A stretch of 64,000 nt of DNA from the human T2T-CHM13v2.0 reference genome, Homo sapiens, in assembly GCF_009914755.1 (NCBI RefSeq), contig NC_060925.1; one strand, given 5' to 3'. Below, in pieces: positions 38,891-44,809 of the stretch (its first letter is position 1; the number at the start of each line of letters is the position of its first letter). Under the pieces are notes generated by a model, which saw only the letters and a list, made by a program, of their open reading frames with translations, was not told where the DNA came from and did no database searches. Both the position numbers and the translations under genes were made by a program.

Positions 38891-39940
38891 TAGGAAATAA
38901 ATTTATAGTTCTCTAAATTTTCCCATAATGGCAACTCTGTGGTCCTTCTATTTACTGTCCTTTTAATGAAAGTATCAATCTTCCCTAAGTCAAATCAGAA
39001 ATACATGAATTTCAGTTTTCCACATTCTCACTAACATTTACTATTTTGGCTTTTGTAATTTTAGTCATTCTTTTGTGAATGTAACAGTGTGCCATTGTGG
39101 CTTTTATTCATATTTCTATGATGACTAATGAGGCTGCACAAATTTTCATGTGCATATTGACCATTTGTACATCTTCATTGTGAAGTGTCTTTTTGCCATT
39201 CTTCATATTATTGTCCATGTTATTTTACTGAAGAGTCTAAAGGTTAATTATATAGTATAGATGTATGTGTGATATATTATATTAATAGTTTTGTCTTCAT
39301 AAAATTTTTGACTTTTTCAAATTGTGAAGATATTATCATACATTTTCCTTTAGAAATCTTATAGTTTCAATATATTTGTATATATCTTGAATTAATTTAT
39401 CGGACTGATGTAAGGTAGATGTGGCAGTACATTTATATATATATATATACGCACACATACTTATTCAGTTTTTATATATATTTAATTATTTTTATATATG
39501 TATTCAGTTATTTCAGCTATTCAATTGAAAAGACATTCCTTTGCAAATTTGCCAAAAATAATTTGACCATGGATATGTGTACATTTTCTGGAAATTCTGT
39601 TATAATCCATTGATTTATTTTTCTGTATTTCACCAATAATGTACTGTTTAGCTTATTAAATTTTTCTGCAAAAATTATAAACTGTGAATTTCTTCTTTTT
39701 TCAGTATTATTTAGGTATTCTAGGTTATTTACTGCACCATATACATGTTATAACAAACATTAATCTGTATAAATAAATGGATTATAGGGATTTATTACAT
39801 TGGTATTGAGTTTATAGGTCAATGTTGGGAGCACGGATATCTTAATTTTTTTCTTCCAATACATGGACTTGGCAGGCCTCTCTTTTTAATTAGATATTAT
39901 TCAATTTATCTTAGCACACTTTTCTATTTTTCAGTGAAGA

Positions 39941-40241
39941 GCACTTAACTCTGGTTTTTATTAGTTTGGGTAAATTATGTGGCCACAGTGGCTGACGGAA
40001 GATTTGCCAACCTTGATAGTTTAGTATAGCTTAATCAAACTTCAGTTTATTGCTTAATTTGTATCACTGCTTTTTCCCATGGGAGTATGGTTGAGCCAGG
40101 CATTAAAAGCACCTGTTGTGTGCTTGATATCTGCTCCTTTTGATATTAGGTGATCTGGAGATCATTCTCCCTGGAATAGGGATGGTTGCATATGTAATCT
40201 TACTGAAAGCCAATAAAAAGGTTAGGGCCAACAAGCCTTTG
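39941..40241 (-). pseudogene. MT-RNR1: NUMT: nuclear copy of the 5' ~300 nt of mitochondrial 12S rRNA
   Basis: Reverse complement reads CAAAGGCTTGTTGGCCCTAACC...AGTAAGATTACATATGCAA...ATCAAAAGGAGCAGATATCAAGCAC...CCCATGGGAAAAAGCAGTGAT...AGCAATAAACTGAAGTTTGATTAAGCTATACTAA...GGTTGGCAAATCTTCCGTCAGCCACTGTGGCCACA, collinear with recalled mammalian 12S. Confidence 0.92.
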
Positions 40242-40274
40242 TATTTATGGAGTTACGTGAACTCATCTAGGCAT
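40242..40274 (-). pseudogene. MT-TF: NUMT: 3' part of mitochondrial tRNA-Phe, contiguous with 12S
   Basis: Reverse complement ATGCCTAGATGAGTTCACGTAACTCCATAAATA directly precedes the 12S start, as in mtDNA gene order. Confidence 0.82.
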
Positions 40275-40949
40275 GTTTTTTGTTAAATTTAATCCTAACT
40301 GGGTTTGGTGCTGTTGTAAATGAAATTGTTGGTTCCTTTTGAACTGAAAATCAATAGCTAACTTGAAGCCCCAGAGCTGTAGAGGTCCACTTCCACCTCT
40401 TTGGTAAGGCTATGTCACACATTGCCTTCTGTACAGACAGGAATACTTTTTGTTTTATTATTTTTGTTTTTGCTCTGAACAAAAATATGATTTTTTTTCT
40501 AAGCAATATAACATTAATGTGCACTAAATAGATGACTTTCAAGGAGTATATACTATTTCTCAAGGAAATTCTCAATTCCTACTTTCTTTCTAAGACCACC
40601 CATTGGGATTAATTTTCCATCACTCACCAAATCCTAAGACTCTATCATAGCACCATAATTTTATTTCTGAAAAAAAAAATTTTGCTAGCTCTGTTTCAAA
40701 AAATGTTATCTTATTATAATAAATATGTCAATTTGTACATCTATGTTTATCACTTAATAAATATTTATAAATAAATGTGAAATTAAATTAGATTCTTATG
40801 TCTATCAATATTAGTACCACTATATTATAATTATTTTAAGCATGTGGCTCATGTGAATTATTTACTCTTTATTAACTTGCATTGACACGATAGCATCCTA
40901 GTAGTGACCCTACTTTCAGGTACTTTATGACCTATATTTTTAATTTAAA

Positions 40950-43657
40950 AGGTGGATTTCCTAACTAGATTACCATGACTTTATTTATGCTATTTGGTAA
41001 TGCCTTCCCATATCAACTCTGGGCTTGGACAAGTGACTTATTTGATGGGGGACAAGAGTAAAATAATTCAAGTAGAGGCTTTATAAGCACTTTCACATTT
41101 TAATTTTCTCTCTTGTTCTTCTGTCTTTGTTATCAGAACACTCTGTGGTAGACTCCTGCAGATATATAAAAAACATTATAAGAGTTTAGTTTCCCCAGTT
41201 GATTTAGATCTGTCAGACCCTAGCCAACCTTCCAACTGTGTATAGTTTGTTCTCACACTGTTATGAAGAAATACCTGAGACTGGATAATTCATAAAGAAA
41301 AGAGGTTTCACTGACTCACAGTTCTGCATGGCTGGGAAGGCCTCCAGAAACTTGCAATCATGGTGGAAGATAAAGGGTAAGAAAGGAACCTTCTTCACAG
41401 GGTGACAGGAAGGAGAAGTTCTGAGCAAAGGGGGAAAAAGCCCCTTATAAAAGCAATAGATCTTGTGAGAACCCATTCACCATCACTAGAATAGCATGGG
41501 GGTAACTCCCCCCATGATTTAATTACCTCCTACTAGGTCCCTCCCACAACATGGGGATTATGGGGACTAATTCAAGATGAGATTTGGGTGGAGACACAGC
41601 CAAATCATCTCATTCTGCCCCTGGTCTCTCCCCAGATCTCATGTGCTCACATTTCAAAACACAATCATGCCTTTCCAACAGTCTCCTAAATTATTAGCTC
41701 ATTCCAGCATCAATCCAAAAGTCCAAGTCCAAAGTCTTATCTGAGACAAGGAAAGTCCCGTCTGCTTATAAGCCTGTAAAATCAAAAGCAAGTTATTTAC
41801 TTCCTAGATACAATGGAGGTACAGGCATTGGGTGGATATACCCATTCCAAATGGGAGAAATTGGCCAAAACAAAGGGGCTACAGGCACCATGCAAGTCAA
41901 AAATCCAGTGAGGCAGTAATTAAATCCTAAAGCTCTGCAATAATTTCCTTGGGCTCCATGACTCACATTCTAGTCACGCTGATGCAAGAGATGGGTTCCC
42001 ATGGCTTTGGGTAGCTCCACTCCATGACTTCACAGGGTATAGCCTCGATGGTAGCTGCTTTCATGGGCTGAGGTCCAGTGTCTATGTCAGTGTCTATGAC
42101 TTTTCCAGGTGCATGGTGCAAGCTGTCAGTGGATCTATCATTCTGGGGTCTGGAAGATGGTGGCCCTGTTCTCATAGCTCCACTAAGCAGTGTCCCACAT
42201 TTCCCATCTGCACTGCCCTAGCATAGGTTCTATATGAGTGCTCTGCCCCTGCAGCAAACTCCTGCCTGGACATCCAGACATTTCCATACAACACCTGAAA
42301 TCTAGGCAGTGGTTCCTAAACCTCAGTTCTTGACTGCCATGTACCTGTAGGCTCAACATCACATGAAAGCTGCTAAGGCTTGGGGCTTGCACTGTCTGAA
42401 GCCATGGACTGAGCAGTACCTTGGTGCCTTTTAGCCATGGCTGGGAAACAAGGCACCAACTTCTTAGGCTGCACAAAGCAGAGGTACTCTGACCCTGGCC
42501 CAGGAAAGTAATTTTTCTTCCTAGGCCTCGAGGCTTGTGATGGGAGGGGCAGCCACAAAGTTCTCTGTCATGCTCTGGAGACATTTACCCCATTGTTTTG
42601 GAAATTAACATTCACATCCTCATTATACATGCATATTTCTGTAGCTGGCTTGAACTTCTCTCTAGAAAATGGGTTTTTCTTTTCTACTGCATCATCAGGC
42701 TGCAAATTTTCTGAACATCTATGCCCTGCTTCATCTTGAGTGCTTTTCCCCTTAGAAATTTTTTTATCAGATACGCTAAATCATTTCTCTCAAGTTCAAA
42801 GTTCCACAGATCTCCAGGGCAGGGGCAAAATGCTGCCAGTCTCTTTGCTAAAGCATAGCAAGCATCAACTTTATTTCAGTCCCCAATAAGTTCCTTTACT
42901 CCACCTGACACCACCTCAGTCTAGATTCATTGTCCATATCCCTATCAGTATTTTGGTCAAAACCTTACAACAAGTGTCTAGGAAGTTTGAAATTTTTGCA
43001 CACTTTCCTGTCTTCTTCTGAGCTCTCCAAAATATTCCAACCTCTCCCTGTTACCCAGGTCCAAAGTCACTTCCACATTTTTGGGTATCCTTATAGCAGC
43101 ATCCCACTTTAGCAGTACCAATTTACTGTATTAGTCTGTTCCCAGGCTGCTATGAAGAAATACCTGAGACTAGGTAATTTATAGAGAAAAGAGGTTTAAT
43201 TGACTCATAGTTCTGAATGGCTGGGAAGGCATCCAGAAACTTACAGCTCTGGCAGAAGTCAAAGAGGAAGAAAGGCACCTTCTTCACAGGGTAGCAGGAA
43301 AGAGAAGTGCTGAGCAAAGGGGGAAAAGCCCCTTATGAAAGCATCAGATCTTGTGAGAACTCACTCACTATCATGAGAATAGCATCAGGGTAACCGGCCC
43401 CTTGATTCAATAACCTCCCACTGGGTCCTTCCCACAACATGTGGCGATTATGGGAACTACAATTCAAGATGAGATTTGTGTGGGGACACAGACAAACCAC
43501 ATCAAACTGCTAGCAAATTCATGAGCAAGTTCAGATAAGATCAATCAAACCCGGATCAGATCATCAGACTATACAACTGACTTCTTGTTGTCTTTAACCA
43601 TTTGCTTTTTGCATGATCTGCCACACAGCCTTAATGTTGGGACAGATAATTATTACA
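40950..43657 (+). mobile_element. Old MLT1 LTR split by the THE1 insertion (40950-41238 and 43505-43657)
   Basis: ACTCTGGGCTTGGACAAGTGACTTATTTG and AGTAGAGGCTTTATAAGCAC on the left; CATGAGCAAGTTCAG and TTGTTGTCTTTAACCA on the right. Confidence 0.6.
41239..43504 (-). mobile_element. Complete THE1 (THE1C-like) MaLR provirus: LTR 41239-41612, internal 41613-43126, LTR 43127-43504
   Basis: Two direct LTRs with TG...CA ends, THE1 internal sequence, 5-bp TSD AACTG (41234, 43505). Confidence 0.95.
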
Positions 43658-43937: not shown

Positions 43938-44065
43938 ATTTCTTTAAATAGCTACATGAAAAATGTAAAATGAGTAAATGATGTTCAAGATGTGATATGA
44001 TATAGAATATTTAGCTCTATGAGGTTTGCATGACAAAAAACTTAAGACTGAAATAGGAATTTTCA

Positions 44066-44809
<744 letters not shown>

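What the first reader, a model, noticed from the sequence alone, without database searches (positions are those of the whole stretch)
39941..40274. Ancient NUMT (tRNA-Phe 3' part + 12S rRNA 5' end) preserving non-human, ancestral-type mtDNA, inserted into an old L1
Seen: ~334 bp on the minus strand collinear with the mt tRNA-Phe/12S junction; the antisense L1 breaks at ...TCAGTGAAGA and resumes at ...TTTTGTTAAATTTAATCCTAA; no TSD or poly-A. From recalled sequences, several positions match general mammalian rather than human mtDNA: TGCCTAGATGAG (human GTTTAGACGGG), 12S start CAAAGG (human AATAGG), GAGAATG (human GAGTTCA), AAATTAAGCAATAA (human CCTTTAGCAATAA). CpGs have decayed (GCCACTGTGG for GCCACCGCGG), consistent with long nuclear residence. 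Inference: end-joining capture early in primate or eutherian history, leaving a fossil of ancestral mtDNA that human-mtDNA-seeded NUMT catalogues could miss.
Basis: partly seen in the sequence, partly recalled or inferred. Interest (0 to 1): 0.7.

Follow-up and report, generated by a model that had tools for sequence, protein, structure and literature searches.

The report
Old, already catalogued mitochondrial DNA insertion
This is a 334-base piece of mitochondrial DNA sitting inside a decayed LINE-1 repeat on human chromosome 1; it is real and likely older than the monkey-ape ancestor, but it is ordinary and has been listed in public catalogues since 2011.

Summary
Window 39942/4-40277 (minus strand) is a copy of the mitochondrial tRNA-Phe 3' half plus the 12S rRNA 5' end (mt 611/612-941). 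The suggestion that human-seeded catalogues could miss it is wrong: it is HSA_NumtS_034 (Simone 2011, 71.4% identity), Hsap_numt30 (Uvizl 2023) and numt_43 (Fu 2026, typed 'fixed'). 'Ancient' is supported. In a tree of 38 human NUMTs of this mitochondrial stretch it falls in a starred group of 7 long-branch copies, apart from 30 younger-type copies. Grouping with the hominine-type copies is rejected (p-AU 2e-11). It carries the old-class base at 21 of 29 diagnostic columns, has lost 9 of 9 ancestral CpGs, and shows about twice the decay of the main NUMT class. It interrupts L1 ORF2 at the KYLGINLT motif, with about 12 L1 bases lost, no target-site duplication and no poly-A, which fits end-joining capture. 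Exact age is not shown. My estimate is 65-100 My, and no matching row appears in the lemur or galago tables I could read. Ordinary; low interest.

The parts
39942..40277 (-). NUMT, mt 611/612-941 (HSA_NumtS_034 = Hsap_numt30 = numt_43); left end uncertain by a few bases (39942-39946)
40242..40277 (-). 3' half of mitochondrial tRNA-Phe (36 bp); the gene boundary at mt 647/648 is recalled
   Evidence: alignment with 37 other NUMTs; mt start 612
39942..40241 (-). 5' end of mitochondrial 12S rRNA gene, about 300 bp
   Evidence: gene label 12S
39031..39941 (-). Decayed L1 ORF2, the part 3' of the insertion, in pieces (39031-39180, 39328-39437, 39471-39941)
   Evidence: 95 of 135 bases match the majority of 21 L1 copies
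40278..40330 (-). L1 ORF2 stub 5' of the insertion, carrying the LGLNLTK remnant of the KYLGI(N/Q)LT motif; no further L1 match to the right

Best explanation
A 334-bp fragment of mitochondrial DNA spanning the tRNA-Phe/12S junction lies inside a decayed L1 ORF2, and was likely ligated there by end-joining repair of a germ-line double-strand break, likely before the anthropoid ancestor, and has likely decayed neutrally since. Shown: mitochondrial origin, single copy with unique flanks, collinear L1 on both sides with about 12 bases missing, no duplication or poly-A, old-class bases, CpG loss, about twice the decay of the main NUMT class. Inferred: DNA (not RNA) donor, end joining, L1 already in place, an age of roughly 65-100 My, and no function.
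For: Catalogue rows at the same coordinates. Tree of 38 rows: the query lies in a starred 7-row group (99/91) with end branches 0.14-0.19 against a median of 0.067. The group holds after dropping 55 CpG-prone columns (95/91; query branch 0.15, median 0.046). AU tests reject the query with hominine-type copies (p 1.8e-11) and with hominine plus catarrhine-type copies (p 3.5e-05). Old-class state at 21 of 29 diagnostic columns, younger-class state at 6, other at 2; 0 of 9 alignable ancestral CpG sites kept; K2P 0.194 to its class majority versus a median of 0.089 in 20 anthropoid-type copies. A neighbouring LTR pair gives 0.179 pairwise, about 0.09 per branch. Between two L1 anchors the 21 copies hold 18-24 bases (21 in 12 of 21); the window keeps about 9. 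The L1 flank is 70% identical to the copies' majority, more decayed than the NUMT's 83% to its class, though subfamily drift adds to that gap. Small deletions and short microhomology are the usual NUMT junctions (PMC2567098, passages).
Against: No orthologous locus or non-human mitogenome could be examined, so the age rests on decay and on a tree of human NUMTs only, with a midpoint root. The class names (hominine, catarrhine, anthropoid type) are my inference plus recall. No stand-alone row of mt about 36-365 was found among 75 Microcebus rows or 68 of about 77 Otolemur rows; this argues weakly against an age before the lemur split. The query's branch includes any mtDNA change between the nearest node and the insertion, so it overstates nuclear age. 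The L1 match stops 53 bp past the NUMT and the NUMT is in L1-sense orientation, which a retrotransposition-linked capture would also give. Tsuji 2012 found only 10 of 557 NUMTs inside retrotransposons.
Confidence: 0.8

Rival explanations
1. The mitochondrial piece was captured during the L1's own insertion, by template switching onto an unprocessed tRNA-Phe/12S transcript or by patching near the L1's truncated 5' end, so NUMT and L1 are the same age.
For: NUMT and L1 are in the same sense. Only 53 bp of L1 survive 5' of the NUMT, with no further match to four long L1 copies that continue beyond that point.
Against: The L1 resumes in register after about 12 lost bases, which would need two switches. 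The L1 flank is more decayed than the NUMT (70% versus 83% to their class majorities). Both NUMT ends lie inside genes, not at RNA processing sites, and there is no poly-A. Tsuji 2012 found no orientation bias and no match of NUMT ends to mitochondrial poly-A sites.
Confidence: 0.07
2. It is an ordinary member of the main anthropoid-era NUMT burst (about 40-55 My) that looks old because this gene-poor, AT-rich region mutates fast.
For: Most human NUMTs over 500 bp date near 54 My (PMC1925129, passages). The query shows the younger-class state at 6 of 29 diagnostic columns. No matching row in the strepsirrhine lists read.
Against: Fast decay does not create 21 shared old-class bases, and the grouping survives CpG removal. 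The LTR pair 1-3 kb away shows about 0.09 per branch, half the NUMT's 0.19.
Confidence: 0.08
3. It is a nuclear duplicate of an older, longer NUMT rather than a direct mitochondrial insertion.
For: The six other old-class copies are longer and contain this stretch. Capture of nuclear DNA into breaks is a known route (PMC2671141, search listing only).
Against: The best identity to any other copy is 77-78%, no sister relation is starred, and flank searches find only L1 matches, no paralogous flank. A very old duplication cannot be excluded.
Confidence: 0.05

Closest known systems
HSA_NumtS_034 (RHNumtS.2, Simone 2011, PMC3228558) = Hsap_numt30 (Uvizl 2023, PMC10764098) = numt_43.chrM:611-941 (Fu 2026, PMC13179385)
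   Same: It is this locus. The 2026 row gives T2T chr1:190255944-190256277, minus strand, mt 611-941. The 2011 row (hg18 chr1:189145480-189145813) has the same length, strand and mt span, and the hg38 row (190909749-190910043) covers its core. The hg18 and hg38 rows were matched through recalled assembly offsets, not a liftover.
   Different: None of the rows seen gives an age, a primate presence pattern or the L1 junction.
Old human NUMT class: age (o) of Tsuji 2012 (138 NUMTs); 189 ancient orthologous human NUMTs, 90 of them at least 100 My old, in Huang and Frith 2025
   Same: Highly decayed fragments derived from pre-anthropoid mtDNA.
   Different: Whether this locus is in either list was not seen (their supplements were not read). 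Those classes are defined with non-human mitogenomes or genome alignments.
NHEJ-captured NUMTs of Hazkani-Covo and Covo 2008 (PMC2567098)
   Same: Small target deletion (41 of 90 of their events had deletions), possible short microhomology, no poly-A.
   Different: Their events are recent and have an empty site in a sister species; here the empty state is inferred from paralogous L1 copies.

Membership tests
NUMT | Significant collinear similarity to mtDNA | tested here: met
   Indirect: 70% to a young-type NUMT, score 159 versus a shuffle maximum of 32. Published alignments to human mtDNA give 71.4% and 73.7%, E 1.8e-18.
NUMT | Embedded in nuclear sequence with non-mitochondrial flanks | tested here: met
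   L1 ORF2 on both sides; typed 'fixed' in a pangenome table.
NUMT | Nuclear-type decay (CpG loss, changes at conserved sites) | tested here: met
   0 of 9 ancestral CpG sites kept; 36 transitions and 18 transversions against the class majority.
Pre-anthropoid (ancient) NUMT | Branches outside anthropoid mtDNA | tested here: inconclusive
   Outside all 30 younger-type human NUMTs with starred support, but the tree holds no extant mitogenome and has no outgroup root.
Pre-anthropoid (ancient) NUMT | Present at the orthologous site in tarsier, strepsirrhines or non-primates | not testable with these tools
   No such genomes are held. The published lemur and galago lists read show no matching row, a weak negative.
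End-joining insertion | No target-site duplication or poly-A; small deletion or microhomology | tested here: met
   About 12 L1 bases missing, no flanking duplication, an A-run at one junction and a 5-base word at the other that could belong to either partner.
L1-mediated retroposed RNA copy | Poly-A tail, target-site duplication, ends at RNA processing sites | tested here: not met

The most novel reading that the evidence does not exclude
This NUMT is a pre-primate (boreoeutherian-age) fossil and one of a distinct older wave of at least seven tRNA-Phe/12S insertions in the human genome. Four of the seven are on X, and five of the other six still carry an alignable ancestral control region, so together they would record the 12S and control region of an extinct stem-primate or earlier mtDNA and serve as presence/absence markers at the base of primates.
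Probability: 0.2. Interest if true: 0.35.

Novelty: already known. Interest (0 to 1): 0.12.

Why it matters
Little on its own: it is one of roughly a thousand catalogued human NUMTs, intergenic, typed as fixed, with no sign of function. Its modest uses are as a dated fossil of pre-anthropoid 12S sequence, as a possible presence/absence marker for early primate branching, and as an uncommon case of a NUMT inside a retrotransposon, where paralogous L1 copies reveal the pre-insertion site.

Tried and rejected
Rfam (five weak matches, none over the NUMT) and ARAGORN (0 genes) do not see it. The repeat finder showed no direct repeat bracketing the insertion. Direct comparison with human mtDNA was not possible because the held genome has 24 contigs and gave no mtDNA match; young-type NUMTs on chr11, chr5 and X served as proxies. 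Looking for a published age failed. The primate tables of PMC13179385 (Supplementary Data 8-9) lie beyond the cut of the held file. Hsap_numt30 occurs once in the held, cut supplement of PMC10764098, so no orthology row was seen; BRINP3 and RGS18, the flanking genes as I recall them, do not occur in its main text. The PMC5570036 supplement had no matching coordinate. A full-text search for HSA_NumtS_034 found 0 papers. Oto_garn_66 (galago, mt 2-365) ends at a similar mitochondrial position but is part of a long CYTB/D-loop block, so I rejected it as an orthologue. CpG decay as the cause of the old group was tested and rejected. Segmental duplication with flanks was rejected. Unseen supplements that bear on the age: Huang and Frith Tables S1-S2, Tsuji 2012 tables, Schmitz 2016 Supplementary Tables 5-6, Uvizl Table S8.

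Full report
1. Observation. The minus strand from 40277 down to about 39942 aligns along its whole length with other tRNA-Phe/12S NUMTs of the same genome. A search of the window's own genome gave 39 matches: itself and 38 others at 69-90% identity. Against a young-type copy on chr11 it scores 159, while 300 shuffles average 19 and reach at most 32. GC is 0.36-0.39 over the insert and 0.20-0.29 in the left flank. Rfam and ARAGORN find nothing there.

2. It is catalogued. The 2026 pangenome table lists numt_43.chrM:611-941 at T2T chr1:190255944-190256277, minus strand, reference, fixed, present in GRCh38; this is window 39944-40277. The 2011 RHNumtS.2 table lists HSA_NumtS_034, hg18 chr1:189145480-189145813, minus, mt 612-941, 334 bp, 71.43% identity, with no counterpart in the earlier RHNumtS.1. 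Uvizl 2023 lists Hsap_numt30, hg38 190909749-190910043, 12S, 73.7%, E 1.8e-18. I found the hg18 and hg38 rows using recalled assembly offsets; their length, strand and mitochondrial span agree. That RHNumtS.2 was seeded with the human reference mtDNA is recalled; its coordinates and identity are to human mtDNA. The claim that such catalogues could miss the insert is therefore refuted.

3. Age. No mitogenome was held, so I used the genome's own NUMTs as fossils. Searches gave 47 other distinct places (a lower bound; one search scored 40 of 65 candidates). Of these, 37 had loci and entered the alignment; 10 without loci were left out. In the tree of 38 rows the query lies in a starred group of 7 (99/91) with copies on chr22, chr3 and four on X. 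These 7 plus one more chr3 copy are split from the other 30 by a starred branch (100/98). End branches in the group are 0.14-0.19, against a median of 0.067. Holding the query with the three hominine-type copies, or with those plus four catarrhine-type copies, is rejected (p-AU 1.8e-11 and 3.5e-05), and the group survives removal of 55 CpG-prone columns. At 29 columns where the other six old copies differ from 20 anthropoid-type copies, the query has the old state at 21, the younger state at 6 and another base at 2; three of the 29 lie at the ragged end. It differs from its class majority at 54 of 322 sites (K2P 0.194; p-distance 0.168, 95% interval 0.13-0.21), versus a median K2P of 0.089 for the 20. 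None of 9 alignable ancestral CpG sites is kept. An LTR pair 1-3 kb away differs by K2P 0.179, about 0.09 per branch. So the insert shows about twice the decay of the main class, which Gherman 2007 dates near 54 My. With recalled branch lengths of the human lineage this suggests 65-100 My. Caveats: the class names are my inference and recall, the root is a midpoint, and the branch may include mtDNA change before insertion. Against a very old age, no stand-alone row of matching span appears among 75 Microcebus rows or 68 of about 77 Otolemur rows. This is weak, because those lists depend on BLAST detection and give no synteny.

4. The L1 host. The left flank matches old repeat copies at 60-73%. 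A set of 21 such copies was aligned, and one of them matches human L1 ORF2p residues 751-787 in solved structures (E about 1e-5). The right flank translates to a remnant of the same motif. The flanks map to profile positions 20-164 and 170-236, and L068 spans both collinearly. Between two anchors the copies hold 18-24 bases (21 in 12 of 21) and the window keeps about 9, so about 12 L1 bases are missing. An A-run at one junction and a 5-base word at the other could belong to either partner, so microhomology is possible but not shown. There is no target-site duplication and no poly-A. The L1 match ends at about 40330, 53 bp past the NUMT. The L1 subfamily could not be determined.

5. Mechanism. 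Most likely a mitochondrial DNA fragment was ligated into a germ-line break in an already resident L1 by end joining, with a small deletion, as described for recent primate NUMTs (PMC2567098); confidence 0.8. Capture during L1 insertion (0.07), an anthropoid-era insert in a fast region (0.08) and a nuclear duplicate (0.05) are argued under rivals. Nothing suggests function: no annotated gene or element lies in the window (hub annotation), and conserved 12S positions are changed freely.

6. Comparison and novelty. It is a known NUMT and works like any neutral one. Old human NUMTs are a known class: 138 of age (o) in Tsuji 2012, and 90 at least 100 My old in Huang and Frith 2025. The only slightly uncommon feature is its position inside a retrotransposon (10 of 557 in Tsuji 2012). 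I found no paper naming this locus in its text (one term) and no published age in the tables I could read; searches listed nothing specific to it.

7. What I saw of each paper. Huang and Frith (bioRxiv 2025.03.14.643190): whole main text, no figures, tables or supplements. PMC13179385: abstract, passages, supplement search and first part of a cut file. PMC3228558: search listing and supplement rows. PMC10764098: passages, section 11, supplement rows and parts 98-99 of a cut file. PMC3467031, PMC2567098, PMC1925129, PMC5059674: passages. PMC5570036: supplement search, no hit. PMC2671141: search listing only.

8. Verdict. Real, old, already known. Interest 0.12.

Noticed in passing
L002 (chr22:36.64 Mb), L005, L008, L009, L025 (chrX 100.45, 141.7, 101.25, 61.3 Mb), partly L003 (chr3:169.0 Mb): The other old-class NUMTs are much longer. 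Five keep an alignable stretch 0.7-1.5 kb upstream of the matched region that looks like the mitochondrial control region (L002 and L009 reach back to a CYTB-end-like frame; label recalled), at 68-77% identity to each other over 1.3-2.6 kb. They are either independent fossils of a pre-anthropoid control region or very old nuclear duplicates.
   Followed up: partly
L005, L008, L009, L025: Four of the 7 old-class copies are on X (about 5% of the genome); binomial p 2e-4, computed after seeing the pattern. Slower decay on X and hence easier detection is a likely cause.
   Followed up: partly
L007, L012 (chr10:47.59 and 48.53 Mb), L017 (chr10:56.45 Mb): L007 and L012 are near-identical copies and group with L017 on a starred branch between the old and the anthropoid-type classes: nuclear duplicates of one intermediate-age NUMT.
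   Followed up: no
window 41235-43510: Two 380-bp direct repeats (60 differences in 382 bases) around 1.5 kb, with a 5-bp duplication at the ends: a MaLR-type LTR element (THE1/MST label recalled). It is absent from the hub's list of longest masked stretches.
   Followed up: partly
window 44051-44178: Short Alu-like fragment matching repeats in several loci (label recalled).
   Followed up: no
PMC10764098 Table S3, Mmur_numt_23 and Mmur_numt_37: Mouse lemur has two decayed 12S NUMTs (71-73% identity, mt 41-1611 and 6-697) that could be orthologues of human old-class copies; synteny was not checked.
   Followed up: no
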